58,340 nt of DNA. Source: Clostridia bacterium (GTDB lineage: Bacteria; Bacillota; Clostridia; Oscillospirales; Acutalibacteraceae). This document shows positions 4,397-58,097 of this stretch, piece after piece. The notes under the pieces are model-generated. The model saw only the letters and a list, made by a program, of their open reading frames with translations. It did not search any database and was not told the origin of the DNA. The first letter of the stretch is position 1; each line of letters opens with the position of its first letter. A program made the position numbers and the translations under genes. The stretch spans positions 1 through 58,340 of the forward strand of contig JAUNFH010000001.1 in NCBI GenBank assembly GCA_030525185.1. The letters are read 5' to 3'.

Positions 4397-4834
4397 ATGA
4401 AGAAAATTATTGCAGTTTTGCTTTCAGTCCTTGTTCTTTTCTCGGCTGTAAGCGTCGGCGCTTTTGCCGAAGACGAAACGGATGTTCAGACCTATTACAC
4501 AATCACCTTCGTTGATTACAACGGCGAAAAGATTGCTTCAAGACAGGTTGAACACGGAAAGGTTGTCAACGCTCCCGCGAACCCGTCGAGAGAGTCAACC
4601 GAAAAAACCGAATACATCTTCAAGGGTTGGTCGGCTGACAACGGCGTAACCGTTTATTCCGGAAACACCCTTCCCGTTGCAACGGCAGACGTTACTTACA
4701 CCGCTGTTTACGCAGAAAAGGAAATCAAGGAAAACCTCACCTTCTGGAAGCTTGTTGCTTCAATCTTGGAAAGAATCAACATGATTTTTGAATACTTCGA
4801 CAAGATTTTTGATTTCGACTTCAAGCGTCCGTAA
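4397..4834 (+). CDS. Small secreted protein with one InlB B-repeat (Listeria/Bacteroides repeat) and an aromatic C-terminal tail
   Basis: RBS GGAGGA. Signal peptide MKKIIAVLLSVLVLFSAVSVGAFA/ED. The repeat signature is YTITFVDYNGE...HGKVV..P.NP.....YIFKGW......LPVATADVTYTAVY. The tail is NLTFWKLVASILERINMIFEYFDKIFDFDFKRP. Confidence 0.65.
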   Translation: MKKIIAVLLSVLVLFSAVSVGAFAEDETDVQTYYTITFVDYNGEKIASRQVEHGKVVNAPANPSRESTEKTEYIFKGWSADNGVTVYSGNTLPVATADVTYTAVYAEKEIKENLTFWKLVASILERINMIFEYFDKIFDFDFKRP

Positions 4835-4850
4835 TCACAAAAACGAAAAA

Positions 4851-4886
4851 ATCCGCGGGTCCGCAAAAAGGCGGATCCGCTTTTTT
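4851..4886 (+). terminator. Rho-independent terminator
   Basis: GCGGGTCCGC-aaaaag-GCGGATCCGC followed by TTTTTT. Confidence 0.7.
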
Positions 4887-4911
4887 AAACCGCAAGGAGC
4901 ACAGAACAAAA

Positions 4912-5496
4912 ATGAAACAATTTTTTGCAATGTTTTCAAGAATGAAATACATCAACCGCTGGGCACTGATGAAAAACACAAGGGAAGAAAACCTCAGCGA
5001 ACACAGCTCGGACGTTGCCGCAATTGCACACGCAATCGCCGTCTTGAAAAATCTTCGTTTCGGCGGAAACGTGAACGCGGACCGTGCGGCGGTTCTCGGC
5101 CTTTACCACGATATGCCGGAAATCATCACGGGCGATATGCCGACCCCGGTCAAATATCACAGTCAAACCCTCCGTTCGGCCTTTCTCGAAGTTGAAAACG
5201 AGGCGTGCGAACGGCTCCTTTCAATGCTTCCGGACGACATGAAGCAGTCCTTCCGCCCGTTCTTTTTCAAAGAAGAGGGCGACGAATACCTTTGGAAAAT
5301 TGTCAAAGCGGCGGACAAAATTTCCGCCCTCATCAAATGCATCGAAGAGGAAAAAGGCGGAAACCGCGAGTTTTCCCATGCCCTTGAGTCAACGAAAAGG
5401 TCAATCGAAAAAATGAACCTTCCGGAAGCGGACGCTTTCCTCGGCGAATTCATCGAAGCGTTCAGCCTGAGCCTTGACGAACAGAACGGAAACTGA
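4912..5496 (+). CDS. yfbR: HD-domain 5'-deoxynucleotidase (YfbR-like)
   Basis: RBS AAGGAG. MKYINRWALMKNTREENLSEHS...LYHDMPEIITGDMPTPVKY carries the H...HD...D metal-binding pattern and an N-terminus typical of YfbR-family HD hydrolases. Confidence 0.75.
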   Translation: MKQFFAMFSRMKYINRWALMKNTREENLSEHSSDVAAIAHAIAVLKNLRFGGNVNADRAAVLGLYHDMPEIITGDMPTPVKYHSQTLRSAFLEVENEACERLLSMLPDDMKQSFRPFFFKEEGDEYLWKIVKAADKISALIKCIEEEKGGNREFSHALESTKRSIEKMNLPEADAFLGEFIEAFSLSLDEQNGN

Positions 5497-5511
5497 AAAA
5501 ATCAAAGCGAT

Positions 5512-5549: not shown

Positions 5550-5560
5550 TTCTAAAGTAA

Positions 5561-6610
5561 TCAATAATTGATGTCATAAACGTTCATGTCGTTCGTAAGT
5601 CTTGCTGTTCCGTCGATGGTTGAAAAAGCAATCTTTGCGTTTGCGGCAATGTCAACGTTGATATGGTGAACGATTGAAGTTACGTGGTCGTTCGTCGGGT
5701 CATAAGTAACCTGGAACGAGCTGTCGGTATAAGTAAGTTCAAAGTTGTTGACCGTAACACCGGGAACCTTGCTGACAACTTTGTCAACCTCGGTGTTGAT
5801 GTCCTTCATGCTTGCGGGCATCATTACCGCACCGTGGTACGACTGCGGAACGCAGGTGTCTGCCGGAGTGGGTTCGGGGTTCTTTTCGTCGTTGAGAACA
5901 AAACGAAGAGTTCTTGTTCCGTCGGCGTTATCGGTGCAAGAGGCTTCCTTGACGCAGCTGTAATCGGTAAGAACCGAACCTTTGTCGGTGTTGCAAATCG
6001 GAAGTTCGTGGTTGATTCGCGGCATTGTTGTTCCGTCTTCGGCGGTATAAACTTCGCCCTTTGTTGCGGTAACAAGCGAATTGGGGTTGTCTTCGGTGGT
6101 CATGTACGATTCGCCGAATTTAAGAAGCGAGTTGACTGCGCTTGAAAAGTTTCTGTATTCTTCGGGAAGAGCCTGATATTCCTTTTTTGAGTATCCGGGC
6201 TGATCCTGCTTCATTTTATTAAGAAGTTCGGTATATTTTTTGACGATTTCTTCATTCGTTTTCGGCGCGTCGGTTGAGGAAGAAGCCGGAGAATCGGTCT
6301 TTGTGTCTGCCGGAGCGTCGGTTTTTCCGTCTGCAGAAGCGGGAGCGGTTGTTTCCGCCGGAGCCTGGGTTGCCGGCTGAGCGGTCGGAGCAACCGTTGC
6401 GGCAACGGGAACGGCCTGAGCGCCGTTGTAATCAACGTCCGCATCAACGTTAACTTTGAAGTTCGTAATTCCGAAGGCGCCGCCGAGCATTGCGATGATG
6501 ATGAGAGCCGTAACAAGTTTCGGCCATGCTTTTTTCCAATTTTCGCTTCTCTTTTGACGTTTTTTGACAATCTTCATTGCTTCTTCAAGCATTTGTTCTT
6601 CTGTTTTCAT
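5561..6610 (-). CDS. Membrane-anchored hypothetical protein with an Ala/Pro/Thr-rich linker
   Basis: RBS GGAGAG. A basic N-terminus is followed by a single TM (WPKLVTALIIIAMLGGAFGITNF). Next comes a low-complexity linker, PVAATVAPTAQPATQAPAETTAPASADGKTDAPADTKTD, then a ~220-aa extracytoplasmic domain with paired Cys residues. I recognise no family. Confidence 0.6.
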   Translation of the reverse strand: MKTEEQMLEEAMKIVKKRQKRSENWKKAWPKLVTALIIIAMLGGAFGITNFKVNVDADVDYNGAQAVPVAATVAPTAQPATQAPAETTAPASADGKTDAPADTKTDSPASSSTDAPKTNEEIVKKYTELLNKMKQDQPGYSKKEYQALPEEYRNFSSAVNSLLKFGESYMTTEDNPNSLVTATKGEVYTAEDGTTMPRINHELPICNTDKGSVLTDYSCVKEASCTDNADGTRTLRFVLNDEKNPEPTPADTCVPQSYHGAVMMPASMKDINTEVDKVVSKVPGVTVNNFELTYTDSSFQVTYDPTNDHVTSIVHHINVDIAANAKIAFSTIDGTARLTNDMNVYDINY

Positions 6611-6812
6611 AGCGTTTTCTCTCCTGTTGTTTTTTCTTACAATTGAGAACTTTGAAAAAGTCCGTATGTACTTTCATATGTTAACACTTTTTTAATTTTC
6701 GGTCAATACTTTTAGCGATATTAAACAATTGATTTTTCACAAAAATTGGTATATAATTTGCCTTGTATTGATATATGCGGCTTTTGCCGCCGAAAAGGAG
6801 ATGTATTTATCC

Positions 6813-8282
6813 ATGAAAAAATCAAAGCTTGCCCTCGGACTCGTCGGAGCGGCCGCCGCCGCAAACGCAGTCCACGCAGCTGTTTTCAAACCGAAAAAAG
6901 CAGAACCCGCAACCATTTCAAAGGAAGAAGTCAACGTTGACCGCTACCGCAAGAATCTTTCAAAAGCAATTCAAATCAAAACGATTTCAAACAGAGATAC
7001 CGACCTCGTTGACTGGGACGAATTCAAGAAATTCCATGAATTTCTTGATGAGGCTTATCCCCTCGTTGCAAAAACGCTTGAAAAGGAAGTTGTTCCGCCG
7101 GCAAACCTTGTTTACCGCTGGAAAGGAAAGAGGAGCGACCTTGACGGCGTTGCCCTCCTTGCTCACCAAGACGTTGTTCCAGTTTCTTCCGGAACGGAAG
7201 AAGATTGGACTCACCCGGCCTTTGACGGCGTTGACGACGGCGAATTCATCTGGGGACGCGGCGCTCTTGACATGAAGAACCACCTCATTTGCGTAATGGA
7301 ATCCGTCGAAGCCCTTCTTGAAGACGGTTTTACGCCGGAAAGAGACGTATATCTCCTTTTCGGCGACAACGAAGAAGTTGTTGCGAACGACAAAAACGGC
7401 GCAAAAGACATTATGAACCATCTCCGTGAAAAAGGCGTTCATCTTGACGCAATTCTTGACGAAGGCGGCGCAATGCTCCCCGTCAACGTTCCCGGCGTAA
7501 TCAACGATAAATACCTCGCCGGAATCGGTCTTGCGGAAAAAGGATATGCGGACATTGAGGTTGTTGTCAACGCAAAAGGCGGCCACTCCTCACAGCCGCC
7601 GAAGCACACCGCTCTCGGAAAAATGGCCGATGTTATCAAAGACCTTGAAAACAACCAGTTCAAAGCTTCGTTTTCTTCAAACATGAAGTTCCTCTTTGAC
7701 TCAATCGCAAGAAACTGCACTTATCCGGTTCGTCTCCTTCTTTGCAACCTTCCGGTTCTTTATCCGGCGCTTCTTCAGGTTTGCAAACTCATCCCCCCGG
7801 CCGCTTGCATGACGAGAACAACAACCGGAATCACAATGGCCGAAGGTTCTCCGGCTTCAAACGTTCTTCCGCAAAGAGCGGCAATCACAGTCAACTTCAG
7901 AGCTATGCCCGGAACAACAACCGAAGACCTTGTCAACCACATCAAAAAGGTTGTCAGAAACAAGGACATTGAAGTCAACGTTCTCAACAGCAAGGAAGCT
8001 TCAAAGTTTTCTCCGATGGATTCGCGTTCATATAAAATCATTGAGCGTCTTTGCACGGCAATCGAACCGAGAGCAATCGTTTCTCCGTTCCTCGTCATGG
8101 GCGGAACCGACGCCTGCAACTATGAACCGATTTGCGAAAACATCTATCGCTACGCTCCGTTCAAGGTTGACACCGCACTCCTCCTTTGCACCCACGGAAC
8201 AAACGAAAGAATTCCCGTCGGCGCAATGAGCGACGCACTCGTTTTCTTCAAAAATTATATCCGCGAAGTAAGTGCGGAATAA
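6813..8282 (+). CDS. M20/M25/M40 family metallopeptidase (carboxypeptidase-like) with an N-terminal signal/anchor
   Basis: ORF 6729..8282. The preferred start is ATG 6813 (MKKSKLALGLVGAAAAANAVHA), 12 nt after AAGGAG; ATG 6801 is also possible. Family motifs are ALLAHQDVVP, WGRGALDMK, FGDNEEV, EGG and GGTDA. Confidence 0.75.
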   Translation: MKKSKLALGLVGAAAAANAVHAAVFKPKKAEPATISKEEVNVDRYRKNLSKAIQIKTISNRDTDLVDWDEFKKFHEFLDEAYPLVAKTLEKEVVPPANLVYRWKGKRSDLDGVALLAHQDVVPVSSGTEEDWTHPAFDGVDDGEFIWGRGALDMKNHLICVMESVEALLEDGFTPERDVYLLFGDNEEVVANDKNGAKDIMNHLREKGVHLDAILDEGGAMLPVNVPGVINDKYLAGIGLAEKGYADIEVVVNAKGGHSSQPPKHTALGKMADVIKDLENNQFKASFSSNMKFLFDSIARNCTYPVRLLLCNLPVLYPALLQVCKLIPPAACMTRTTTGITMAEGSPASNVLPQRAAITVNFRAMPGTTTEDLVNHIKKVVRNKDIEVNVLNSKEASKFSPMDSRSYKIIERLCTAIEPRAIVSPFLVMGGTDACNYEPICENIYRYAPFKVDTALLLCTHGTNERIPVGAMSDALVFFKNYIREVSAE

Positions 8283-8293
8283 AACAAACAACC

Positions 8294-13089: not shown

Positions 13090-13193
13090 ACCAAGGTGAC
13101 ACCTTTCAAAAAAGGTGTCACCTTGACTGTTTATGAAAGGAAAACATCAAAAACTTTTTTCGGAAAAGCTTTTTGTGTTCAAGGGTGTTGAAT

Positions 13194-14069: not shown

Positions 14070-17000
14070 TTAATAGTGTTTTACACCGCATTCGCAGTAC
14101 TGATGGATTCTGAACAGTTTCCAGAAGAAACGTGTAATCTTATAAATGAAACCTGAAAATCCTCCTTTATGACAGGCGCATGAGCAGCCTTCGGAAGGAT
14201 TAAGAGAAACTCCGCAGTTATCGCATTTTCCGTCGCCATTTTTATCTGCGTGTCCGGTTGCAGGAACGGTTTCTCTTGCAACGAAGATTGTTCCGCAAGT
14301 TCCGCAGTGTTTACCTTCGGTGAGACCTGTTGCTTTGCAGGTGGCTTCAACAGCTTTATCAATAACAACGGTGTGCTCCTTCATCGGAACAGTGTCCTGC
14401 TTAACAATTACCGCTTTGCAGTCCTCGCAGTGTTTGCCTTCGGTAAGACCGGTTTTCGTGCAGGTTGCTTCGACAGCCTTGTCAACAACAATGTTTGTGT
14501 GATTGTTCGGATCAATCGGAATTTCTTTCTGCTCAACGAGAATCGTATCGCAAGCCACACAAATGCTGCAAGCGGTATAGCCTACTTCTGTGCAGGTTGC
14601 CGGCTGGGCTTCAATTTCTTCAATATCGGTATGGTTGTTCGGATTGATTGCGGTTACTTCCTGCTTAACAATAACCGTGTTGCAAACCGAGCAGTGTTTA
14701 CCTTCGGTGAGACCGGTCTTTGTGCAGGTTGCGGCAACGGCTTTGTCAACAACAACGGTGTGATCGGCTTTGGGTGTTGCTTCCTGTTTAACAATTACCG
14801 TGTTGCAAACCGAGCAGTGTTTGCCTTCGGTGAGGCCGGTCTTTGTGCAGGTTGCGGCAACAGCCTTGTCAATAACAACGGTGTGATCCGCTTTGGGAAC
14901 AACCTTTTGCTCAACCTTGTAATCGCAACGTGTGCAGTATTCGCCGGCGGTGAGACCGGTTTCAAGGCAGGTTGCGCTTTTTGCCGAAAGTTTTACAATG
15001 TTATGTCCGAGAGCCGGGATCGTTTCGGTATAGCTTTCGGTGCAGTCTTCGCCGGTGCAGGTATAAGTGCGAACGCCGGCTTCAAGGCAGGTCGGTTCTT
15101 TTGTGACGACGGAGGTATAGGTATGTTCATGGTCGCCGAGAAGAACAAACTTGCGGTTATATTTTTCGGCATAGCTTTGAGCCGATGAGTTTGCGTAACC
15201 GTAGATTGTTGCGTTTTTATAAATAGTAAGTTCATGATTATAAATAACGCAATCCGGATTATAAAAAGCAATTTTTTCAAGCTGACTGCAACTACCAAAA
15301 GTACTATAACCCACTGCCGTAACACTTGAGGGAATATTAACGCTTCTGAGACCGCTGTTATTGAATGCAGACCCTTCAATCGACGTTACACTTGACGGAA
15401 TGTTAATTGAGGCAAGACCGGAGCAACCGGAAAAAGCACTGTATCCGATTTTTGTTACAGTATCCGGAATTTCAACGGATTTAAGTCCCTTACAGCCGGA
15501 AAACGTACTATCGTTAATAACCGTAACGCCGCTCGGAATTATAACTTCGGTCAAACCGACGCATCCGCTGAATACATAGTTTCCGATTTCAACAACGGAA
15601 GCCGGAAGATCGATTTCCTGAAGTCCGGAACACCTACCAAAAGCAGATGCTTCCAAAGTTGTTACGGTATTCGGAATTGTTACCGATTTAAGACCGGTAC
15701 AGCCGTAAAAAGCATTGCTTCCGATTGTTGCAACACCTTCGGGTATATCAATTGTTTCAATTCCGACGCAGCCGTTAAAACAAGAATTGCTGATTGCGGT
15801 CAAGTTGTTTGAAAGCTTAACGGTTTTAAGACCCGTGCAACCGAAAAATGCACTTTCTCCGATTGTTACAACGCTTTCGGGAACGCTGAGATTAACAACA
15901 GCCTTGCAGCCGTTGAAAGCAGAAATTCCGATAACATTTAATCCTTCGGAAAGTGTTACGGTTTTAAGTGTGGTACAATTGATAAAAGCCTCTTCTCCGA
16001 TTTCAACAACGCTTTCGGGAATTGACATTGCGGTCAAAGCGGGACAATCCTTAAAAGCTTGCTTTCCAATTGAAACAAGTTCGCTTGAAAGTTTAGCCGA
16101 AGCAAGGCTTGTGCAGCCACTGAATGCTGAACTTCCAACAGCAGTAATGCTATCCGGAAGAACAATGCGAAGAAGGCCTGTGCAGCCGTAAAAAGCAGAT
16201 TCCTTTACCGAAGTGAGAGATTCCGAAAGTTTTGCCGTTTTAAGTGATGTGCAGTTTTGAAAAGCACGAGTTCCGACACTCGAAACACTGTCCGGAAGCG
16301 AGACAGCGGCAAGACTTTTACAACCGGAAAAAGCATTGTTTCCGATAGTTGCAAGCGTTGACGGGAATTTTACGCTTGCAAGAGATGTACAACCTGAAAA
16401 AGCGTTGTCTTCAATGTTGACAAGTCCTTCGGGAAAAGTAAGGGACACAAGACCCGTACATCCCGAAAAAGCATAACTTCCGATAGTTGTGAGCGATTCG
16501 GGAAATTTTACACTTGTTAAGCCTGTGCAGTTATAAAAAGCCATATACCCAATTGAAGCAAGATTGCTCGGAAGTATGAGTGATGAAAGGCCCTTACATC
16601 CACAAAAAGCATAGTTTGAAATTTTAACAAGCGACTGCGGAAAATTAAGCGACGCAAGAGTATAACAGCCGTTAAAAGCATCTGCTCCGATTGTAATCAG
16701 ATTTTCCGGAAAAGTTACGCTTGTCAAAGCAGAACAACCGAAAAACATTTTTTCACTTACTAATGTGAGATTCTTAGGCAAAACAGCCCTTGAAAGGGAT
16801 GTACAACCTCTAAAAGCCTCAGTTCCAATATCGTTTACGCTGTCCGGAATAACAACCGAGCTGATGGTAGTGTTATTCTTAAAAACGCTTGTTGAACCGG
16901 AAATTGCCGTTACCGGATATCCGCCGAGGGTTGACGGAATTTCAACTGCGCCGTAAACGACCGACTTGTCAATGCCGGTGATTTTTGCGCTCGTTCCGTT

Positions 17001-17126
17001 GACTACGGTGTAGGTGTAGCCGTTTTCCGTCTCTGCCGCAAGTGCAACCGTACCACTGAACGGAACAAGCCCGATCACAAGCAGAAGCGCAAGCAACAAC
17101 GAGGTGAGTTTTTTTGTTTTTTGCAT
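14070..17126 (-). CDS. Secreted BspA-type leucine-rich-repeat surface protein with C-terminal Cys-containing repeat modules
   Basis: RBS GGAGGA. Signal peptide MQKTKKLTSLLLALLLVIGLVPFSGTVALA/AE. About 22 repeats of ~23 aa follow the pattern (I/L)P.S(V/L).xIG..AF.GC..L..(V/A). Then come ~8 modules of ~41 aa of the form H.....K....TC...G...G..C..C. The protein ends in a Cys/His patch and an aromatic tail, GGFSGFIYKITRFFWKLFRIHQYCECGVKHY. Confidence 0.8.
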   Translation of the reverse strand: MQKTKKLTSLLLALLLVIGLVPFSGTVALAAETENGYTYTVVNGTSAKITGIDKSVVYGAVEIPSTLGGYPVTAISGSTSVFKNNTTISSVVIPDSVNDIGTEAFRGCTSLSRAVLPKNLTLVSEKMFFGCSALTSVTFPENLITIGADAFNGCYTLASLNFPQSLVKISNYAFCGCKGLSSLILPSNLASIGYMAFYNCTGLTSVKFPESLTTIGSYAFSGCTGLVSLTFPEGLVNIEDNAFSGCTSLASVKFPSTLATIGNNAFSGCKSLAAVSLPDSVSSVGTRAFQNCTSLKTAKLSESLTSVKESAFYGCTGLLRIVLPDSITAVGSSAFSGCTSLASAKLSSELVSIGKQAFKDCPALTAMSIPESVVEIGEEAFINCTTLKTVTLSEGLNVIGISAFNGCKAVVNLSVPESVVTIGESAFFGCTGLKTVKLSNNLTAISNSCFNGCVGIETIDIPEGVATIGSNAFYGCTGLKSVTIPNTVTTLEASAFGRCSGLQEIDLPASVVEIGNYVFSGCVGLTEVIIPSGVTVINDSTFSGCKGLKSVEIPDTVTKIGYSAFSGCSGLASINIPSSVTSIEGSAFNNSGLRSVNIPSSVTAVGYSTFGSCSQLEKIAFYNPDCVIYNHELTIYKNATIYGYANSSAQSYAEKYNRKFVLLGDHEHTYTSVVTKEPTCLEAGVRTYTCTGEDCTESYTETIPALGHNIVKLSAKSATCLETGLTAGEYCTRCDYKVEQKVVPKADHTVVIDKAVAATCTKTGLTEGKHCSVCNTVIVKQEATPKADHTVVVDKAVAATCTKTGLTEGKHCSVCNTVIVKQEVTAINPNNHTDIEEIEAQPATCTEVGYTACSICVACDTILVEQKEIPIDPNNHTNIVVDKAVEATCTKTGLTEGKHCEDCKAVIVKQDTVPMKEHTVVIDKAVEATCKATGLTEGKHCGTCGTIFVARETVPATGHADKNGDGKCDNCGVSLNPSEGCSCACHKGGFSGFIYKITRFFWKLFRIHQYCECGVKHY
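14661..14897 (-). repeat. Tandem 123-bp duplication inside the LRR-protein gene
   Basis: Copies start at 14661 and 14784 (period 123 nt, 41 codons). By eye there are about 8 mismatches over ~114 aligned nt. They encode KADHTVV(I/V)DKAVAATCTKTGLTEGKHCSVCNTVIVKQE. More diverged copies lie at about 14290-14520. Confidence 0.85.
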
Positions 17127-17516: not shown

Positions 17517-17517
17517 C

Positions 17518-22846: not shown

Positions 22847-22885
22847 GAAAAAAAGTTGCACCCGAAACCGGATGCAACTTTTTTT
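22847..22885 (-). terminator. Rho-independent terminator of the MATE-GH3-esterase cluster
   Basis: On the minus strand: AAAAAAAGTTGCATCCGG-tttc-GGGTGCAACTTTTTTT, immediately after the esterase stop codon. Confidence 0.75.
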
Positions 22886-43825: not shown

Positions 43826-45760
43826 ATGAAGAAAGTTTTAAGCGTTCTTCTTGCCCTTGTGCTTGCGCTTTCGTGCGTTTCGGTTGCGGCCGCGGCAGAA
43901 GAAAAAGTCACCCCGCTCATCATCGTTCCCGGCTACAGTGCTTCCGAGCTTTACCTTGACTACGGCGAAGAAACCGAAGAGCATATTTGGGGCGTTCAGA
44001 TGAAGCCGATCATTGACAAGGTTCTTCAGCGTCTCGGCGCACTCGGCATCAGTCTCGGCGCACTCGGCGTCGGCGATAAGGAACTGCTCATCAAAACGGT
44101 CGGCGACGCCGTTCGCGAACTTTACGGCGTTCTTGCAAACAACGACGACGGAACGAGCAAGTATAACGTCACGGCCGCACTCACCGACCCGGCAACCACA
44201 ACAACAAAATATTTCGTTGATAAATACGGCGAAGACTCCGGAATGCTTCATCTTCCCGAAATCAACTGCCACTTTGCTTCGCAAATCGGCGGCGAAAACA
44301 TTTTCAACGCTCACATCGACTTCAGACAGGGCGCAATCAAATGCGCTCAGGATCTTCGCAAGTATGTTGAAGCCGTAAAAGAATACACCGGTTCGGACAA
44401 AGTCAGCCTTTACGGTCTCAGCCACGGAGGAATGACTGTCGGCGTTTATCTCAGCCTTTACGGCGACCTCGGAGACATTGAATCGGCGGTAATGTTCCAC
44501 CCCGCTCTCAGAGGCGCATACTTCCTCAACGACATCATTTCAAGAAATCTTGACATTGATTTCCACACCGTTGTCGAATACGCTCAGGTCGGCGCATTCA
44601 CCGAAACCGAATATGAATTTCTCATGGTAATCAGTCGCCTCGGTCTCGTCAACGACCTTGCAAACGCTCTCGTTGACGAAGTTTTCGACGATATCGCAGG
44701 CAACTGGGGAAGCATTTGGGACTTTATGCCGCCCGAATTTTATGAAAAGTACAAAGAGATGTATCTTGACCCCGTCGCAAACGCAAAGATTATCGAAGCG
44801 AGCGACAAAATGCATTACGAAATCATGCCGAACTATTCCGAAGCTTTCAAAAACGCTCAGGCTCACGGTGCACGTGTTTCGGTCATCTCGGGCACGGGCA
44901 GACCGATAATCACAGGCGGACAGGTCAACTCCGACGGAATCCTTGCCTGCTATTCAACAAGCGGAAGCGTTTGCGCTCCTTTGGGTCAGCGTTTTGCGGA
45001 CGGTTATAAAAAGTCCGGAAGCAACTGCGTCGATCCGACCCACAACCACGTTTCCCCTTCAATGGAAGTTGACGCTTCATATGCATACCTTCCCGAAAAC
45101 ACATGGTTCGTTGAAGGTCAGCTTCACGGCCAGGTTTGGTGGGACGATTACACAAAAGAGCTTTGCTCAAAGCTCCTTTTCTCCGACGAAATCGAAGATG
45201 TCTATTCAAGCGAAAAGTTCCCGCAGTTTGAATATTCACAAAACCCGAAAGACGAAATCCATATAAGTTTCGACAACGCACCGGTCGGCTTCCTTTCGCA
45301 GGGAAGCAAGGGTGTTTACATCACGAACCTTTCAAAAGAATATGCAATCAAGGTTCTTGGTCTCACCGCAAAGAGAAGCAAACTTTATTTCGATACCCTC
45401 ACTCAGTCGGTCATCAAAGCGGGCGAAACCGTTTATCTTCCGCTCAAGGGCGAAATTCCGAACCTCAACGCCGCAAAGGACGAACTTACCGTCAGCTATC
45501 TTCAGCTCGGTTCCGTTTCCGCACCGGGAACAAGAACATTCGACTTCACAATCACCGGCGGAGAAGACGTTTCCTTTGACGCGAAAAATCCGTATTGCGA
45601 CGCAAATCTTGCCGATCCGTTTGACGACCACATCGACGGAACGAATGTTGACAAAATTTTTGAATTCTTCGGAATCAAAGCGTTCATTTCAAGCATTTAT
45701 AATTGGATTATGACTTATCTCAAACCGATTTTTGACCTCATCGGAAAAATCAGAGGCTGA
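43826..45760 (+). CDS. Secreted alpha/beta-fold serine hydrolase (lipase/LCAT-like), paralogue 1
   Basis: RBS GAAGGA. Signal peptide MKKVLSVLLALVLALSCVSVAAAA/EE. TPLIIVPGYSASELY is followed by the nucleophile elbow KVSLYGLSHGGMTV (GxSxG). A conserved late block reads THNHVSPSMEVDASYAYLPENTWF. The aromatic C-terminal tail is KIFEFFGIKAFISSIYNWIMTYLKPIFDLIGKIRG. Confidence 0.65.
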   Translation: MKKVLSVLLALVLALSCVSVAAAAEEKVTPLIIVPGYSASELYLDYGEETEEHIWGVQMKPIIDKVLQRLGALGISLGALGVGDKELLIKTVGDAVRELYGVLANNDDGTSKYNVTAALTDPATTTTKYFVDKYGEDSGMLHLPEINCHFASQIGGENIFNAHIDFRQGAIKCAQDLRKYVEAVKEYTGSDKVSLYGLSHGGMTVGVYLSLYGDLGDIESAVMFHPALRGAYFLNDIISRNLDIDFHTVVEYAQVGAFTETEYEFLMVISRLGLVNDLANALVDEVFDDIAGNWGSIWDFMPPEFYEKYKEMYLDPVANAKIIEASDKMHYEIMPNYSEAFKNAQAHGARVSVISGTGRPIITGGQVNSDGILACYSTSGSVCAPLGQRFADGYKKSGSNCVDPTHNHVSPSMEVDASYAYLPENTWFVEGQLHGQVWWDDYTKELCSKLLFSDEIEDVYSSEKFPQFEYSQNPKDEIHISFDNAPVGFLSQGSKGVYITNLSKEYAIKVLGLTAKRSKLYFDTLTQSVIKAGETVYLPLKGEIPNLNAAKDELTVSYLQLGSVSAPGTRTFDFTITGGEDVSFDAKNPYCDANLADPFDDHIDGTNVDKIFEFFGIKAFISSIYNWIMTYLKPIFDLIGKIRG

Positions 45761-51690: not shown

Positions 51691-53331
51691 ATGAAAAAAT
51701 TCTTTAAAAAGTCACTTTCGGTTTTTCTTGCGCTTTGCATTGTTTTTTCGGTTTCCGCCGTTTCGTTTGCGGCGCATGAAAAAGGAAAAACGCCGGTTAT
51801 TCTCATTCCCGGCTTCGGACAAAGCGAAACGACCGTCTGCGACAACGACGGAAATTACCTCGGAGACATCAGCACGTTTTCGCTCGCCGGCCTTGAAACA
51901 AAAACGCTCGTCAAAAACGTAATCAAGGACCTTCTTGTTCCGCTCGGTGCCTCGGCAATCACGAGAAGCGACAAGGAGCTTTCCGCCGCAGTGAAAAAAT
52001 TCATGCACGAACTTTTCAAGCCCTTTGAGCTGAACGACGACGGAAGCGCGGTATACAACAAAAAAGTCCGCCGTTTTGAAAAGCCGTATTCGGAACTTTC
52101 CGAAGAAGAGCAGAAAATCATTTATTCAAACGTTTCCCTTGACGGACTGAGCGAATACGACAGCGTGAGATATTACTATACCTACGATTCCTTCGGAAGC
52201 GTGAAAGACGCCGCCGACGGACTTCACGATTACCTTCATAACATCGTTCTTGCCCAAACGAAAGCGGAAAAAGTCAATCTTGTTCCGATCAGCCAGGGCG
52301 GCGCGGTTCTCATTCAGTATCTTGCTTCATACCCGGAAGATTACAAGTACATTAAAAAAATCGTCAACATGATTCCGGCCTTTGACGGTTCACAAATTGT
52401 CGGCGATATTCTCACCGACAACGTGAGAATTTATGACGTTGAACGTCTTCACAGAGAGATTCTTCCCGCCATTCTTGACGGCGACCTTGCTTATGAACTC
52501 AGCATTGCGCTGAGACTTGCCCTTTCTTCCGAAACTCTTGAAAAGGTTCTCAGAACCGCCCTTGAGGAAGCGAAGGATATGCTCGCAAAGAAGAGCAGTA
52601 TGATGTGGGCGCTCTGTCCGTCCGGAAGCTACGAAGAAGCAAGGGACCTTCTTCTTTCCGACGAAAAGTACTCCGCCGTCCGCGCGGAGACGGAAGCTTT
52701 TTCAGAAGCGAGAAAAGCCCTTCCCGAAACGCTTCAAAAGCTCAAGGGAAGCGGCGTTTATATTCATATCATTGCAAGCTACGACATGGGATACTTCATG
52801 GCTCCGCTTTTCGGCTGCTATAAAGAAGACGCGGACAACCTTCTTTCCCCGTCATCTTCGGCACTCGGAACAGTTTCCGCCGCATTCGGCGAAACGCTCG
52901 GCGATTCTTACGTTTCACCCCGCACCTATTGCAAAAACGAAACTCACAACCACATTTCTCCGGACAACAAGCTTGACGCTTCAACCGGATTCTTCCCAGA
53001 AAACACATGGTACTTCAAGAGCGTTTCACACATGGGAATGAACGGCCGCGAAGACGTCAAGAACTTTGCCGCCGAACTTGTTATGGACGACGACGTTTTT
53101 GATATTTACTCCTTCCCCGGTCACACTCAATTCACCGATCCGAGAGACAACATTGCCGAAAGCGTCCTTTCTTCAAACGGAAAACGAATTTATCATTACG
53201 ATAAGGACGGAAACTATCTTTTCGGCGAAAGCGTTCCGACCGAAGAAAAAGGCTTTTCTTTCTGGAAAGTTCTTTACACCGCTTTCAACGTTGCTTTTTC
53301 CGTTCTTTCAAAGCTCGGCTTTTCAAAATAA
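51691..53331 (+). CDS. Secreted alpha/beta-fold hydrolase (lipase/LCAT-like), paralogue 2
   Basis: RBS AGAGGGAG. Signal peptide MKKFFKKSLSVFLALCIVFSVSAVSFA/AH. TPVILIPGFGQSET is followed by the elbow KVNLVPISQGGAVL, where Pro replaces the first Gly of GxSxG. The shared late block is THNHISPDNKLDASTGFFPENTWY. The tail is GFSFWKVLYTAFNVAFSVLSKLGFSK. Confidence 0.6.
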   Translation: MKKFFKKSLSVFLALCIVFSVSAVSFAAHEKGKTPVILIPGFGQSETTVCDNDGNYLGDISTFSLAGLETKTLVKNVIKDLLVPLGASAITRSDKELSAAVKKFMHELFKPFELNDDGSAVYNKKVRRFEKPYSELSEEEQKIIYSNVSLDGLSEYDSVRYYYTYDSFGSVKDAADGLHDYLHNIVLAQTKAEKVNLVPISQGGAVLIQYLASYPEDYKYIKKIVNMIPAFDGSQIVGDILTDNVRIYDVERLHREILPAILDGDLAYELSIALRLALSSETLEKVLRTALEEAKDMLAKKSSMMWALCPSGSYEEARDLLLSDEKYSAVRAETEAFSEARKALPETLQKLKGSGVYIHIIASYDMGYFMAPLFGCYKEDADNLLSPSSSALGTVSAAFGETLGDSYVSPRTYCKNETHNHISPDNKLDASTGFFPENTWYFKSVSHMGMNGREDVKNFAAELVMDDDVFDIYSFPGHTQFTDPRDNIAESVLSSNGKRIYHYDKDGNYLFGESVPTEEKGFSFWKVLYTAFNVAFSVLSKLGFSK

Positions 53332-56011: not shown

Positions 56012-56068
56012 AAAAATTTCACAGCATTTTTTTGCGTATACAATAAAAATTACCGGGAGTGAAAAACG

Positions 56069-56569
56069 ATGTCAGCAAAAAGAAAAGATTATCTTTCATG
56101 GGACGAATATTTTATGGGAATCGCAATCCTTTCGTCCTATCGCAGCAAAGATCCCAACACGCAGGTCGGAGCTTGCATTGTTAACGACAGAAACAAAATC
56201 ATGTCCGTCGGCTATAACGGATTTCCTATAGGTTGCAGCGACGACGAATTTCCGTGGGAAAGGGACGGCAACGCATACGACACAAAGTATCCTTATGTTT
56301 GCCACGCCGAACTCAACGCAATTCTCAACAACGCCGGAGCTTCGCTTGAAGGTTGCCGTGTTTATGTTGCGCTTTTTCCCTGCAACGAATGTGCAAAGGC
56401 AATCATTCAAAGCGGAATCAAAGAGGTTGTTTATCTTTCGGACAAGTACAACGGAACACCGATGAACCTTGCTTCAAAAAGAATGTTCAATGCCGCCGGA
56501 GTCAAGCTCACAAAACTCAATCCGGAAAAGAAACAGCTCGTCATTGACTTCAGAGAGGAAAACATCTGA
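56069..56569 (+). CDS. comEB: Deoxycytidylate (dCMP) deaminase
   Basis: [20 protein letters not shown], the zinc motifs CHAELNAI and PCNECAKAI, and VVYLSDKY. Confidence 0.85.
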
Positions 56570-56570
56570 C

Positions 56571-58097
56571 ATGAAAAAAAGCAACAAAAAGTTTCTTTCT
56601 CTTGTCCTTTCTCTTATGATTCTTTTTTCGGTTTCGGCCGTTGCTTTTGCGGCGGAGTACTCAATCTCGAATCCGTATGAGAACATTGACTGGAACACGG
56701 TGAAAACATACAAAACCGCCCTTCATTCGCACACAAACGCTTCCGACGGCGACCAAACGCTCACTCAGTCGATTGAACGCCACGCCGAAACGGGCTTTGA
56801 CATCATTGCGATAACCGACCACGGAACAACGGATTACGGTTGGACGAAGGACAACAAAACTGGAATTCACACTCTTTTGAAGCTTGCCGGAAGAACCGAA
56901 GGTGAAATTTCTCCGCTCGGTGAAAACGGAAGCTTTGAAAACGGAATGACATATTCATACCGCACGGCCGAAAACGGCGATGATTATCTCAAAATCGACG
57001 GAAAAAAAGACATTTTGAGAATCCCCTTCGGAATCGAAAACAACGCCGTTTCCGTCAATGCACACGTCAACAGCTGGTTCGTCGATTTTCGTGACAATTC
57101 GGTCACAACGTACAAAGACGCAATCGGAAAAGTTGACAATCTCGGCGGAGTTTCGGTAATCAACCACCCGGGCGAATACACAAAAGCACGCTACGAAGTC
57201 CGCTCGCAAAATGCGTACAGCGAAAGCAATTTTACTTACAGATATTACATCAACAAATTCGCCGCTCTTCTTGAAGAATATCCGACCTGTCTCGGAATCG
57301 ACATCAACTCCAAGGGTGACGCAAGAACGCGCTTTGACCGAATTCTTTGGGACAAACTTCTTTCAAGATTTTCAAAAAGCGGAAAAACGGTCTTTGCAAT
57401 CGCTTCAAGCGACGCCCATCAACTCGACAAAATCAACACCGGATACACACTCCTTCTGATGCCTTCGCTCGATTCAAAGAGCGCAAAAAAATCCCTTGAA
57501 AGCGGAGAATTTTTCGTCGCGAGCCATTGCATCGGAAATTACGATGAGCTTTTTGAAATCGAGAGCGCGCTCAAAGAGTTTTACGGCGAAGAAAACGAAA
57601 CCTTCAAAGCGGTTTCCGCCTCAAGAAAAGAAATTGAGGAACGCATTGAAGGCATTGAAAACGGAAAATACAAGGCAAAATCTTCAATAGGTTCCGTTTT
57701 CAGCGTTCTTGACGAGGACGGTTACCTCGCCGCAAAAACCGAACCTTCCGTCAAAAAAATTACCGTTGACGAAAAAACGGACACCGTTTCGGTAAAAACG
57801 GCGAACGCTTTAATTGTTCGCCTAATTTCGGACGGAAAGCTGATTGAAACGAAAAAAAGTTCCGAAGCCGACTTCGATCTCGGAGATTACGAAGGAAAAC
57901 TCGGAGATTACGTCCGGTTTGAAATTTTCGGTGAAGGCGGAATCATTTACACTCAGCCGTTTTTGCTGAATGCCGACGAAAAGGACAGTGAAAATTCCGC
58001 TGTTGACAAAGGCTTTTTCGACCTCGGTTTTTCTGACTTCCTTTTCGGAGAAATCAACCGCTGGGTTTCCGTTCTCGGAAGAATGTTGAAAAAATAA
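56571..58097 (+). CDS. Secreted PHP-domain (polymerase/histidinol-phosphatase-type) metal-dependent phosphoesterase
   Basis: ORF 56469..58097, with the start at ATG 56571, one nt after the comEB stop. Signal peptide MKKSNKKFLSLVLSLMILFSVSAVAFA/AE. The PHP motifs are ALHSHTNASDGD, IIAITDHG, NAHVN and INHPG. The aromatic C-terminal tail is GFFDLGFSDFLFGEINRWVSVLGRMLKK. Confidence 0.65.
   Translation: MKKSNKKFLSLVLSLMILFSVSAVAFAAEYSISNPYENIDWNTVKTYKTALHSHTNASDGDQTLTQSIERHAETGFDIIAITDHGTTDYGWTKDNKTGIHTLLKLAGRTEGEISPLGENGSFENGMTYSYRTAENGDDYLKIDGKKDILRIPFGIENNAVSVNAHVNSWFVDFRDNSVTTYKDAIGKVDNLGGVSVINHPGEYTKARYEVRSQNAYSESNFTYRYYINKFAALLEEYPTCLGIDINSKGDARTRFDRILWDKLLSRFSKSGKTVFAIASSDAHQLDKINTGYTLLLMPSLDSKSAKKSLESGEFFVASHCIGNYDELFEIESALKEFYGEENETFKAVSASRKEIEERIEGIENGKYKAKSSIGSVFSVLDEDGYLAAKTEPSVKKITVDEKTDTVSVKTANALIVRLISDGKLIETKKSSEADFDLGDYEGKLGDYVRFEIFGEGGIIYTQPFLLNADEKDSENSAVDKGFFDLGFSDFLFGEINRWVSVLGRMLKK

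What the first reader, a model, noticed from the sequence alone, without database searches (positions are those of the whole stretch)
4397..58097. Five unrelated Sec-signal proteins share an aromatic amphipathic C-terminal tail (KGF / FWK type)
Five proteins have unrelated passenger domains: an InlB B-repeat protein (145 aa), a BspA-LRR protein (1018 aa), two lipase-like hydrolases (644 and 546 aa) and a PHP phosphoesterase (508 aa).

All five start with a classical AxA signal peptide. All five end in a 26-35 aa aromatic segment:
- NLTFWKLVASILERINMIFEYFDKIFDFDFKRP (4733-4831)
- HKGGFSGFIYKITRFFWKLFRIHQYCECGVKHY (tail about 14073-14165, minus strand)
- VDKIFEFFGIKAFISSIYNWIMTYLKPIFDLIGKIRG (45653-45757)
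- EEKGFSFWKVLYTAFNVAFSVLSKLGFSK (53251-53328)
- VDKGFFDLGFSDFLFGEINRWVSVLGRMLKK (58011-58094)

Several elements recur. The tails open with a K-G-F or VDK-x-F entry. FWK(L/V) appears in three of the five. The F/W/Y/I/L residues are spaced in a helical pattern, and the last residues are basic.

I see no LPXTG motif, no uninterrupted ~20-residue TM stretch, and no CTERM sorting signature that I recognise. My inference is a modular surface-retention, sorting or in-plane membrane-anchor signal. I am not aware of a named family for it.
Basis: partly seen in the sequence, partly recalled or inferred. Interest (0 to 1): 0.72.

Follow-up and report, generated by a model that had tools for sequence, protein, structure and literature searches.

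The report
Aromatic helix tails on exported proteins
Five exported proteins of a gut Clostridia-type bacterium each end in a short greasy-on-one-side helix that probably holds them on the cell membrane, and one of these tails belongs to a very large, unnamed, cysteine/histidine-framed tail family.

Summary
All five proteins, their signal peptides and the quoted tails are in the sequence. A few tail coordinates are off by 2-3 codons.

Each tail is an amphipathic, aromatic-rich helix. It lies at the extreme C-terminus and is conserved in orthologues. In this window that property is tied to signal-peptide proteins.

The five tails are not one sequence family.

**The BspA-LRR tail (14073-14186, minus strand).** It belongs to a sharply conserved module of about 40 aa: C-x-[C/H]-x-C-H-K, then the helix GFxGFI[YW]KIxRFFWKLF, then C-x-C-G-x-x-H-Y-stop.
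- It matches at least 1,656 protein clusters.
- 148 of the 150 best matches end at the last residue.
- 73 carriers together match 36 Pfam families.
- No Pfam, NCBIfam or PDB entry covers it.
- One ligand position alternates between Cys and His, which points to metal binding.
- The layout resembles the eukaryotic LITAF zinc-clasped in-plane membrane anchor.

**The other four tails.** Each is specific to its own protein family. Profile HMMs do not connect them to each other or to the Cys/His module. Only faint traces are shared (FWK, RFFxxLF, an Asn).

**Best reading (inferred).** These are interfacial membrane anchors that retain Sec-exported proteins. I found no TM segment, LPXTG, tripartite CTERM signal or conserved neighbouring enzyme.

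**Rating.** New variant of a known kind. Interest is moderate to high, mainly because of the Cys/His module.

The parts
4397..4468 (+). Signal peptide of the 145-aa Flg_new (InlB B-repeat) protein: MKKIIAVLLSVLVLFSAVSVGAFA.
   Evidence: for the sequence; for Flg_new at residues 34-103; heuristic signal-peptide call.
4733..4831 (+). Tail T1: NLTFWKLVASILERINMIFEYFDKIFDFDFKRP. An amphipathic aromatic helix with no Cys frame.
   Evidence: It is conserved in the orthologues L003 19339-19776 and L004 19467-19907. muH 0.58 at 100 degrees, shuffle p = 0.057. It is the top non-self hit of the lipase-tail HMM, but only at E 0.5-0.8.
17037..17126 (-). Signal peptide of the 1018-aa BspA-LRR protein: MQKTKKLTSLLLALLLVIGLVPFSGTVALA.
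   Evidence: (LRR_5, E = 2.7e-165).
14073..14186 (-). Tail T2, the complete Cys/His-framed C-terminal module: CSCACHK-GGFSGFIYKITRFFWKLFRI-HQY-CECGVKHY-stop.
   Evidence: It matches 1,656 representative proteins at E <= 1e-3, and 148 of the best 150 end at the last residue. Invariant residues are C1, C5, H6, G9, C33, C35 and H39. Position 3 is C in 105 sequences and H in 41.
14169..14186 (-). N-side ligand cluster C-S-C-A-C-H (residues 981-986).
   Evidence: invariant C, C, H, with C/H alternation at the middle position. One search lists the invariant columns.
14106..14165 (-). Cationic aromatic amphipathic helix of the module (residues 988-1007, GGFSGFIYKITRFFWKLFRI).
   Evidence: AF2 with an MSA predicts a helix at residues 989-1004, pLDDT 90-93. 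muH 0.70, shuffle p = 0.002. HELIQUEST-type D = 1.93.
14073..14096 (-). C-side ligand cluster C-E-C-G-V-K-H-Y-stop (residues 1011-1018).
   Evidence: C33, C35 and H39 are invariant, G36 is present in 145/146 and Y40 in 138/146. AF2 places beta-bridges here.
43826..43894 (+). Signal peptide of the 644-aa lipase-like hydrolase: MKKVLSVLLALVLALSCVSVAAA.
45647..45757 (+). Tail T3: VDKIFEFFGIKAFISSIYNWIMTYLKPIFDLIGKIRG.
   Evidence: Orthologues at 79-84% identity keep ADKVLDFFGIKKLLSAIYNWLMTYLAPLFRFISQVKG. Shuffle p = 0.045.
51691..51771 (+). Signal peptide of the 546-aa lipase-like hydrolase: MKKFFKKSLSVFLALCIVFSVSAVSFA.
   Evidence: Nearly all of the 120 listed homologues have a comparable N-terminus; a few are fragments.
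53242..53328 (+). Tail T4: EEKGFSFWKVLYTAFNVAFSVLSKLGFSK. AF2 predicts a helix at residues 524-541, which is 53260-53313.
   Evidence: a tail is present in nearly all full-length homologues down to 32% identity; pLDDT 82-89 over the helix. The passenger fold resembles LCAT, LPLA2 and Tle4 lipases.
56571..56651 (+). Signal peptide of the 508-aa PHP phosphoesterase: MKKSNKKFLSLVLSLMILFSVSAVAFA. The true start is probably the ATG at 56571, not the TTG at 56469.
   Evidence: Homologues start at the equivalent MKK.
58002..58094 (+). Tail T5: VDKGFFDLGFSDFLFGEINRWVSVLGRMLKK.
   Evidence: It is conserved in the 120 listed homologues, with consensus DKGFFDLGFLDFLFAEFNNWFAIIGRFFANLF. Shuffle p = 0.003. 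hhalign against the Cys-type gives probability 63% versus 2% for the reversed control.

Best explanation
**Source organism.** The window comes from a gut Oscillospirales bacterium of the Acutalibacteraceae type.

**What the tails are.** Its five classical signal-peptide proteins each end in a short amphipathic alpha-helix rich in F, W and Y.

**Proposed mechanism (inferred).**
1. The protein is exported by Sec and the signal peptide is cleaved.
2. The helix then lies in the interfacial region of the outer leaflet of the cytoplasmic membrane.
3. Its aromatic face sits in the lipid. Its Lys/Arg residues contact anionic head groups.
4. This retains the protein at the cell surface without a TM segment or covalent sorting.

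**Two classes.**
- (a) The BspA-LRR tail is a member of a large, conserved, so far unnamed module of about 40 aa. A strongly cationic aromatic helix (GFxGFI[YW]KIxRFFWKLF[KR]) is framed by C-x-[C/H]-x-C-H-K on one side and C-x-C-G-x-x-H-Y-COOH on the other. These two clusters probably bind zinc and clasp the ends of the helix. That is the same design as the LITAF in-plane anchor. The module is attached, always at the very C-terminus, to many unrelated extracellular passengers.
- (b) The other four tails are unframed helices specific to their own families: Flg_new, two lipase-like hydrolases and PHP. They are maintained by selection within each family. They probably do the same job in the simpler PBP5 manner.

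**Shown versus inferred.**
- Shown: presence, extreme C-terminal position, conservation, modularity of class (a), helicity (predicted), amphipathicity, and absence of known sorting signatures.
- Inferred: membrane binding, zinc binding, and surface retention.
For: **Tails and signal peptides**
They are present as quoted.

**Amphipathicity and position**
- The helical periodicity exceeds shuffles for each tail.
- HELIQUEST-type discriminant: 1.93 for T2, 1.65 for T5, and 0.80-1.22 for T1, T3 and T4.
- No 19-aa window is hydrophobic enough for a TM helix. The maximum mean Kyte-Doolittle value is 0.53-1.25.
- In the window the tails are tied to signal-peptide proteins and to the C-terminus.

**Conservation in orthologues**
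- Lipase family: nearly all full-length homologues among the 120 listed, down to 32% identity.
- PHP family: the 120 listed of 845 hits.
- T1: orthologues in L003 and L004.
- T3: orthologues in L042 and L043.
- AF2 predicts helices at residues 524-541 of the lipase and 989-1004 of the BspA protein.

**Class (a), the Cys/His module**
- 38 genome loci, all from Oscillospirales-type gut MAGs. 38 of 44 unique tails end exactly at the stop codon.
- 1,656 representative proteins at E <= 1e-3. 148 of the best 150 matches end at the last residue.
- 96 of 150 have a recognisable signal peptide. Most of the rest appear to be fragments.
- Passengers include LRR_5, NPCBM, CotH, NlpC/P60, transglutaminase, papain-type peptidase, GH78, Big_2, cohesin and PG_binding_1. 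All are extracellular-type domains.
- Many carriers have Pro/Glu/Asp/Thr-rich linkers just before the module.
- The Cys<->His swap at one framed position (C in 105, H in 41) fits a metal ligand. It does not fit a disulfide or lipidation.

**Analogy**
LITAF has strictly conserved Cys pairs on either side of a hydrophobic amphipathic helix. It binds zinc and embeds as an in-plane anchor (PMC5142333).
Against: - There is no experimental localisation for any member.
- I could not inspect model coordinates. So I cannot exclude that the lipase tail helix packs on the catalytic domain or on the (normally cleaved) signal peptide. The pLDDT of both helices is high.
- T1 is nearly charge-neutral and the PHP consensus tail is neutral (D = 0.58-0.80). 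That is weak for binding anionic lipid.
- In independent loci, unframed aromatic tails are not generally enriched on signal-peptide proteins. Class (b) is therefore not a proteome-wide device.
- Linkers before T1 and T3-T5 are only about 5-15 residues. Passengers would sit at the membrane, beneath the wall. That suits enzymes but is less obvious for an adhesin-like Flg_new protein.
- A metal site in an extracellular protein is plausible in an anaerobe but is unproven here.
- The HELIQUEST thresholds are recalled from memory.
Confidence: 0.5

Rival explanations
1. The tails are recognition signals rather than lipid anchors. A dedicated partner binds them. That partner could be a membrane receptor, an S-layer or wall component, or a processing peptidase/transpeptidase. 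The partner then docks, cleaves or covalently attaches the protein, as sortase, exosortase or myxosortase systems do.
For: - The Cys/His module is far more conserved than lipid binding alone would require. Seven Cys, His and Gly positions are invariant, and about a dozen further positions, including most of GFxGFI[YW]KIxRFFWKLF, are nearly so.
- It always ends at ...HY-COOH. This looks like a specific recognition surface.
- A conserved Asn sits in the helix of the lipase, PHP, T1 and T3 tails. That could reflect a specific polar contact.
- Cys-containing C-terminal sorting signals processed by CPBP-type proteases exist (10.1101/2023.06.07.544157).
Against: - The known signals are tripartite: a motif, then a TM segment, then an Arg cluster. 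These tails have no TM segment.
- They match no NCBIfam CTERM model.
- No gene family other than the tail proteins and ABC ATPases recurs in the 38 loci.
- The four unframed tails share no common recognisable motif.
Confidence: 0.2
2. The four unframed tails (T1, T3, T4, T5) are ordinary structural elements of their own protein families. Each would be a C-terminal helix that packs on the catalytic domain, acts as a lid or lipid-interface element, or mediates oligomerisation. On this reading their resemblance to each other and to T2 is convergent composition, not a shared function.
For: - Each tail is conserved only inside its own family. Profile HMMs do not connect the families.
- The PHP tail is as well conserved as a folded element.
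- The AF2 helix has fairly high pLDDT.
- The lipase-like passengers resemble LCAT, LPLA2 and lipases, which have their own membrane or lipid-binding elements.
- Outside the window, unframed tails are not enriched on signal-peptide proteins.
- The hydrophobic positions follow an i, i+3, i+4, i+7 pattern, which is compatible with a coiled coil.
Against: - All five classical signal-peptide proteins in one 58-kb window carry such a helix at the extreme C-terminus. From the background rate, about 0.17 would be expected.
- In the lipase family the tail sequence drifts widely while amphipathicity is kept. This is more typical of lipid contact than of a packed helix.
- FWK[LVIM] is almost exclusive to C-terminal tails across families.
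- Lipase tails and PHP tails each resemble the Cys-type core more than their reversed sequences do.
Confidence: 0.15
3. The Cys/His module of T2 is primarily a metal- or redox-active functional unit, or a stabilising cap of the Cys-rich repeat stalk. Examples would be metal capture or extracellular zinc or iron sensing. On this reading it is not an anchor.
For: - There are seven conserved Cys/His positions, one of which swaps between C and H.
- About half of the carriers have an H-x-D-x3-D-G-x-C-D-x-C element upstream and Cys-rich repeats of about 40 aa. The module could be the terminal unit of a metal-stabilised stalk.
Against: - The most conserved stretch between the clusters is a cationic aromatic amphipathic helix. 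A pure metal site has no need for it.
- The module also follows Pro/Glu-rich linkers on proteins that have no Cys-repeat stalk.
- Its strict position at the very C-terminus of exported proteins is the hallmark of anchoring or sorting domains.
Confidence: 0.08
4. The pattern is a compositional coincidence. Aromatic amphipathic stretches are common, and five happening to sit at C-termini has no meaning.
For: - Similar 18-mers occur about once per 1000 internal residues.
- Cross-family HMM scores are at noise level.
- The Asn motif and the 'KGF entry' were defined after looking at the data.
Against: - The tails are conserved in orthologues for all five proteins.
- The C-terminal and signal-peptide association in the window is significant: p = 0.003 by Fisher test, and about 0.17 segments expected versus 5 observed.
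- T2 belongs to a family with 1,656 significant matches.
Confidence: 0.04

Closest known systems
LITAF / SIMPLE-like domain (eukaryotic; Pfam zf-LITAF-like)
   Same: Conserved Cys (and His) knuckles lie on both sides of a hydrophobic helix of about 22-25 residues with amphipathic character. LITAF binds zinc, which brings the two ends together. The helix embeds in one leaflet as an in-plane, monotopic anchor (PMC5142333). The T2 module has the same order of elements: ligand cluster, helix, ligand cluster plus beta-bridge.
   Different: - No sequence relationship: there is no Pfam hit at E <= 10.
- The ligand spacing is CxCxCH...CxCGxxH, not CxxC...HxCxxC.
- The helix is cationic and aromatic rather than plainly hydrophobic.
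- The module is bacterial, extracytoplasmic, about 40 aa and at the extreme C-terminus of signal-peptide proteins. LITAF is cytosolic on endosomal membranes.
- Zinc binding is untested here.
C-terminal amphipathic-helix anchors of low-molecular-weight PBPs (E. coli PBP5/PBP6 DD-carboxypeptidases and Gram-positive counterparts)
   Same: These are Sec-exported enzymes held on the outer face of the cytoplasmic membrane by an amphipathic helix of about 18-20 residues at the very C-terminus. They have no TM segment and no covalent attachment. PBP5 membrane attachment through its amphipathic C-terminal anchor is discussed in PMC2909392, which appears in the results. I did not read that paper, so the rest is my own knowledge. 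This is the best functional model for T1 and T3-T5.
   Different: There is no sequence similarity. The tails here are much richer in F and W. They occur on unrelated passengers (lipase-like, PHP, Flg_new) in Oscillospirales. Membrane association has not been shown.
Tripartite C-terminal sorting signals (LPXTG/sortase; PEP-CTERM/exosortase; GlyGly-CTERM/rhombosortase; MYXO-, JDVT-, Synerg- and CGP-CTERM/CPBP-type myxosortases)
   Same: They are short modular domains at the extreme C-terminus of signal-peptide proteins. They sit on many unrelated passengers and occur several times per genome. Some have an invariant Cys (10.1101/2023.06.07.544157).
   Different: All of these have a signature motif, then a hydrophobic TM helix, then a basic cluster. 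A cognate enzyme cleaves them. The tails here have no TM helix, no LPXTG, no NCBIfam CTERM hit and no recurrent neighbouring enzyme.
Non-covalent Gram-positive wall-binding modules (SLH, CWB2, choline-binding repeats, ChW, LysM, GW, WxL)
   Same: They are C-terminal, modular surface-retention devices on diverse exoproteins of Firmicutes.
   Different: Those are folded domains or repeats of 20 to more than 150 aa that bind wall polymers. None is hit by the five proteins or the tails. The tails here are single helices.

Membership tests
LPXTG sortase substrates | LPXTG-like motif followed by a hydrophobic TM segment and a basic tail at the C-terminus | tested here: not met
   A regex scan found none in 478 proteins of the window plus loci. 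None is visible in the five tails.
Tripartite CTERM sorting signals (PEP-, GlyGly-, PGF-, MYXO-, Firmicu-CTERM and others) | Match to a curated TIGRFAM/NCBIfam CTERM model | tested here: not met
   The five tails gave 0 NCBIfam families at E <= 10. The full-length proteins gave no CTERM hit.
Tripartite CTERM sorting signals | Uninterrupted hydrophobic TM helix followed by an Arg/Lys cluster | tested here: not met
   The maximum mean Kyte-Doolittle value over 19 aa in the last 40 residues is 0.53-1.25. Charged residues interrupt every tail.
Tripartite CTERM sorting signals | Co-occurring dedicated sorting enzyme | tested here: inconclusive
   No recurrent neighbour family appears in the 38 loci. 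Whole-genome phylogenetic profiling was not possible with these tools.
LITAF domain | Sequence match to Pfam zf-LITAF-like; CxxC ... (H)xCxxC knuckles | tested here: not met
   No Pfam hit at E <= 10. The spacing here is CxCxCH ... CxCGxxH.
LITAF domain | Conserved Cys/His clusters flanking a hydrophobic or amphipathic helix of about 22-25 aa | tested here: met
   Invariant C1, C5, H6 and C33, C35, H39 flank a predicted helix. The comparison is with PMC5142333.
LITAF domain | Zinc binding and monotopic membrane insertion | not testable with these tools
   The only indirect evidence is the C/H alternation at ligand position 3.
PBP5-type C-terminal amphipathic anchors | Sec signal peptide plus an amphipathic helix of about 18-20 aa at the extreme C-terminus, with no TM segment | tested here: met
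PBP5-type C-terminal amphipathic anchors | Tail-dependent membrane association | not testable with these tools
   This needs fractionation or liposome binding.
Cys/His-framed C-terminal module defined here (unnamed) | C-x-[C/H]-x-C-H-K ... GFxGFI[YW]KIxRFFWKLF ... C-x-C-G-x-x-H-[YW] ending at the stop codon, on a signal-peptide protein | tested here: met
   Window residues 981-1018 of the BspA-LRR protein match every invariant column. The phmmer family has 1,656 members. T1, T3, T4 and T5 do NOT meet this definition.
Any named Pfam / NCBIfam / PDB family for the tails | Significant profile or sequence match over the tail | tested here: not met
   - The tails alone have no Pfam or NCBIfam hit.
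- No Pfam family is common to the 73 carriers.
- There is no match by PDB profile, sequence or fold.

The most novel reading that the evidence does not exclude
The Cys/His-framed tail (CxCxCHK, cationic aromatic helix, CxCGxxHY-COOH) is a previously undescribed zinc-clasped, in-plane membrane anchor. It would be independent of sortase and act on the outer face of the membrane, making it a bacterial extracytoplasmic analogue of the LITAF domain. It would also be a principal way in which abundant gut Oscillospirales display BspA-type LRR adhesins, glycosidases, peptidases and cohesin scaffolds on their surface. The unframed tails of the lipase-like, PHP and Flg_new proteins would be degenerate or convergent versions of the same device.
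Probability: 0.35. Interest if true: 0.8.

Novelty: new variant of a known kind. Interest (0 to 1): 0.62.

Why it matters
Oscillospirales (Acutalibacteraceae, Ruminococcaceae and Oscillospiraceae) are abundant and mostly uncultured members of human and animal gut microbiota. How they display surface proteins is known mainly through sortase and cohesin-dockerin systems.

A conserved 40-aa C-terminal module found on at least 1,656 protein clusters would be a missing entry in the catalogue of bacterial surface-anchoring devices. Its carriers include BspA-LRR adhesin-like proteins, peptidoglycan hydrolases, glycosidases and cohesin proteins.

Recognising the module would have three practical effects:
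- It would improve localisation prediction. These proteins currently look 'secreted'.
- It would help annotate thousands of hypothetical proteins.
- It would offer a compact tag for surface display.

A zinc-clasped in-plane anchor outside the cytoplasm would also be a new context for a design known so far from eukaryotic LITAF.

The unframed tails on lipase-like and PHP enzymes suggest these enzymes work at the membrane surface. That narrows down their likely substrates.

Tried and rejected
1. **Word-indexed homology search with the 49-aa T2 tail.** No candidate was found, because the query was too short for the index. One search was wasted.
2. **Exact look-up of the window lipase.** It is not on record. 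The source genome is not in the collection. The nearest relative found is a Hadza gut MAG, L003.
3. **One common profile for the five tails.** I rejected this. The Cys-core HMMs, the lipase-tail HMM and the PHP-tail HMM each detect only their own family.
4. **Profile-profile comparison (hhalign).**
   - PHP versus Cys-type gives 63% probability over 15 columns (IIGRFFANLF against KILRFFWKLF).
   - Lipase versus Cys-type gives 10%.
   - Lipase versus PHP gives nothing.
   - Real tails do score 1-3 bits above reversed or shuffled tails at the population level. However, members of one family are not independent, so this is only a hint.
5. **Asn-centred motif (hydrophobic-N-x-[AILW]-[FMV]-[STE]-hydrophobic-hydrophobic).** I defined it after seeing the data. 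It finds one independent C-terminal case (L033 5093-6139) but also internal and non-exported hits. I did not adopt it as a signature.
6. **General enrichment of unframed aromatic tails on signal-peptide proteins in independent loci.** None was found.
7. **Conserved neighbouring gene as a candidate sorting enzyme.** None was found. Window neighbours are ordinary housekeeping genes.
8. **Shared DNA cassette between the tail-coding segments.** Only matches of 22 nt or less were found.
9. **Other collections.** The module is absent from viral contigs, plasmids, PDB sequences and PDB folds.
10. **Source names for ten module-bearing clusters.** None was recorded.
11. **Literature.** A search for 'FFWKLF' gave 0 papers.
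12. **TM-helix reading of the tails.** Rejected on hydropathy.

Full report

Translation of the five ORFs reproduces every quoted N-terminus and tail. Pfam confirms the unrelated passengers:
- Flg_new in the 145-aa protein.
- BspA-type LRR_5 in the 1018-aa protein (E = 2.7e-165).
- Weak alpha/beta-hydrolase hits in the 644-aa and 546-aa proteins.
- PHP in the last protein. Its real start is almost certainly the ATG at 56571 (508 aa), as in its homologues.

All five begin with a Lys-rich n-region, a hydrophobic core and an AxA-type site. This rests on inspection and a heuristic; no dedicated predictor was available. Some quoted coordinates are 2-3 codons short of the quoted peptides.

Neither the tails alone nor the full proteins hit any Pfam or NCBIfam model over the tail, even at E <= 10.

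**2. Is it more than chance?**

- Within the window, the last 32 residues of the five proteins carry 6-9 F/W/Y. Other proteins carry 0-5, apart from one polytopic permease.
- Each tail has its hydrophobic-moment maximum at or near the alpha-helical angle (90-110 degrees). Each beats its own shuffles, with p between 0.002 and 0.057.
- Comparable aromatic amphipathic 18-mers occur about once per 1000 internal residues. About 0.17 would therefore be expected in the last 36 residues of five proteins. Five are seen.
- The association with signal-peptide proteins gives Fisher p = 0.003.
- No tail contains a TM-grade hydrophobic stretch.
- No LPXTG-like signal exists in 478 proteins of the window and related loci.

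**3. Conservation**

- All 120 listed homologues of the 546-aa hydrolase come from Acutalibacteraceae, Ruminococcus or Clostridia MAGs. Apart from a few fragments, they keep a signal peptide and a C-terminal amphipathic tail down to 32% identity. The tail sequence drifts strongly (FSFWKLLYTAVNALFSVFSKL, then ...LTKITKxLNxGVNxxFxxV, then ...IVRFVNNIFA).
- The PHP family has 845 hits. The 120 listed keep a well-conserved tail, DKGFFDLGFLDFLFAEFNNWFAIIGRFFANLF.
- T1 is conserved in L003 and L004.
- T3 is conserved in two metagenomic orthologues.
- AF2 with a 60-sequence alignment models the hydrolase at pLDDT 93. The tail forms a helix at residues 524-541 after a small beta region.
- The passenger resembles LCAT, lysosomal PLA2, Tle4 and bacterial lipases.

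**4. The BspA-LRR tail is a member of a large, sharply defined module**

A two-sequence alignment was enough to retrieve 38 genome loci. It combined the window tail with a tail found by chance on a 1597-aa neighbour in L001. All 38 loci come from Oscillospirales-type gut MAGs.

Those loci hold 44 distinct tails of the same design. 38 end exactly at the stop codon. Often two or three adjacent genes carry one.

An exhaustive phmmer search with the 45-aa window tail gave the following:
- 1,656 of 1.84 billion representative proteins match at E <= 1e-3, and 97 at E <= 1e-10.
- 148 of the best 150 matches end at the last residue of proteins 44-2370 aa long.
- 96 of the 150 have a recognisable signal peptide. 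Most of the rest appear to be fragments.

Column statistics over 146 sequences show the design:
- Invariant residues: C1, C5, H6, G9, C33, C35 and H39.
- Near-invariant residues: K7, F13, K16, I17, F21, K23 and F25.
- Position 3 is Cys in 105 sequences and His in 41. This swap is expected for a metal ligand. It is not expected for a disulfide or a lipidation site.

The helix between the clusters places K16, R19, K23 and K26 on one face and F/I/L/W on the other.

AF2 with a 36-sequence alignment predicts a helix at residues 989-1004 (pLDDT 90-93). Short beta-bridges follow over the CxCGxxHY end.

73 carriers together match 36 Pfam families, and none is common to all. They include LRR_5, DUF6273, transglutaminase, Flg_new, papain-type peptidase, Big_2, cohesin, GH78, CotH, PG_binding_1 and NlpC/P60-amidase.

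I found no PDB sequence, profile or fold match. There is no plasmid or viral copy, no source name and no paper containing the core string.

**5. Are the five tails one family?**

No. The evidence is as follows:
- HMMs of the Cys-type core, built from 44 and then 193 sequences, hit every Cys-type tail. T1, T3, T4 and T5 are left in the noise.
- The lipase-tail HMM reaches T1 only at E 0.5-0.8 in a 478-protein set.
- The PHP-tail HMM finds nothing else.

What remains is faint:
- hhalign gives 63% probability for PHP versus Cys-type over IIGRFFANLF and KILRFFWKLF. The reversed control gives 2%. Lipase versus Cys-type gives 10%.
- Real tails score 1-3 bits above reversed tails at the population level. 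These sequences are not independent.
- FWK[LVIM] is almost exclusive to C-terminal tails (35 of 37 occurrences) and occurs in the T1, T2 and T4 families.
- A helix-internal Asn recurs, but I noticed it after looking at the data.
- The tail-coding DNA shares no cassette.

So the resemblance lies in physical chemistry, with at most very remote or convergent sequence similarity. In independent loci, unframed aromatic tails are not generally enriched on exported proteins. A few further examples do exist: L032 2148-3812, L033 5093-6139, L014 52-, L018 6472-, and subterminally L001 18287-19708.

**6. Mechanism**

The features that define known C-terminal sorting signals are a motif, a TM helix, a basic cluster and a cognate enzyme. 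They are absent here.

What is present:
- An export signal.
- An extreme C-terminal position.
- A short polar or Pro/acidic linker.
- A helix with an aromatic face and, in most cases, net positive charge. A HELIQUEST-type discriminant gives 1.93 for T2, 1.65 for T5, and 0.8-1.2 for T1, T3 and T4 (the thresholds are from memory).

This is the profile of an interfacial (in-plane) membrane helix. The established precedent on the outer face of a bacterial membrane is the C-terminal anchor of PBP5-type carboxypeptidases (PMC2909392 appears in the results; I did not read it, and the rest is my own knowledge).

For the Cys/His module the closest design is the LITAF domain. There, strictly conserved Cys pairs on both sides of a hydrophobic amphipathic helix bind zinc, and the helix embeds as an in-plane anchor (PMC5142333). 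The module is not a LITAF family member, because it has no sequence match and a different ligand spacing.

I therefore propose surface retention by interfacial anchoring. Class (a) would be zinc-clasped. Class (b) would be unframed and family-specific. My confidence is about 0.5.

The main rivals are:
- A recognition or sorting signal for an unidentified partner. The very high conservation of the module favours this.
- For the four unframed tails, ordinary family-specific structural helices.

Sortase substrates exist in the same bacterial family (PMC12997984). The tails therefore add to LPXTG anchoring rather than replace it.

**7. Novelty and verdict**

The general kind is known: C-terminal retention devices and amphipathic-helix anchors. 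The Cys/His-framed module appears to be undescribed and very widespread in gut Oscillospirales. I rate it a new variant of a known kind.

Function remains inferred. The decisive tests are fractionation of tail fusions, C-terminal mass spectrometry, metal analysis, liposome binding and genome-wide phylogenetic profiling.

Noticed in passing
window 14200-15250 (minus strand; residues ~640-975 of the BspA-LRR protein); tandem DNA duplication at 14653-14897: Between the LRR region and the tail lies a stalk of about eight Cys-rich units of about 40 aa (H...A-T-C-x3-G-x5-6-C-x2-C...H). It has no significant Pfam or PDB match. Two units are a 92%-identical 123-nt tandem duplication. Many other carriers of the Cys/His tail have the same kind of units and an H-x-D-x3-D-G-x-C-D-x-C element just upstream of the tail. 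This looks like an undescribed metal-stabilised stalk repeat.
   Followed up: partly
L022 3560-12738; L031 2864-12779; L016 2972-12957; L024 3149-12601; L029 3020-12322; L023 3-10126: Genes carrying the Cys/His tail are often clustered, with two or three consecutive genes on one strand. Typically a giant protein (2100-2400 aa) is followed by smaller proteins whose tails are more divergent (for example CSCLCHSEKPFMQLLMPLFKLIWQLLGIDNCYGTCDAVHY). A few tails carry 1-44 extra residues after ...HY.
   Followed up: partly
window 22884-23777 (minus strand), N-terminus: The only FWK[LVIM] outside C-terminal tails is at residues 9-12 of a BD-FAE/Abhydrolase_3 esterase that has no signal peptide (MDILKPVLLKFWKITEK...). 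It is also present in the L003 orthologue. It may be an N-terminal amphipathic element or a coincidence.
   Followed up: no
L014 52-6600 (a protein of 2182 aa or more, N-terminally cut by the contig end): This giant protein ends in an unframed tail (GLLKFFQKIIEWFKKIFEKISNLFK). It also contains four internal matches to the Asn-centred helix pattern (INSILSYL, YNTILSIF, INALVSLI, VNSLVSVI). It may be a helical-repeat surface protein.
   Followed up: no
L001 18287-19708 (minus strand): A signal-peptide Metallophos phosphoesterase carries a tail-like helix (FWNGFVRSVSRIAAFFNNIA) about 24 residues before its C-terminus, not at the end. This shows that subterminal variants exist.
   Followed up: no
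window 6807-8282 (+): An M20/M28 peptidase has an N-terminal hydrophobic segment (MKKSKLALGLVGAAAAANAVHAAV) but no aromatic C-terminal tail. It is probably an N-terminal signal anchor. It is the one possibly exported protein in the window without a tail.
   Followed up: partly
AF2 model of window 51691-53328: The signal-peptide helix (residues 3-28) is modelled with unusually high confidence (pLDDT 85-93), alongside the C-terminal tail helix (82-89). The two hydrophobic helices may be packed against each other in the model.
   Followed up: no
window 56469-56570: The mechanical ORF of the PHP protein starts at a TTG 34 codons upstream of the conserved MKKSNKK start. The extension ([34 protein letters not shown]) is absent from homologues and is probably not translated.
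   Followed up: yes
window 5561-6610 (-), 8355-10127 (-), 13173-13988 (+), 31628-33487 (-): Four proteins have no Pfam match. At least two have N-terminal or internal hydrophobic segments, and 31628-33487 starts with a CxxC...CxxC zinc-ribbon-like motif. All are uncharacterised, and some are probably envelope proteins.
   Followed up: no
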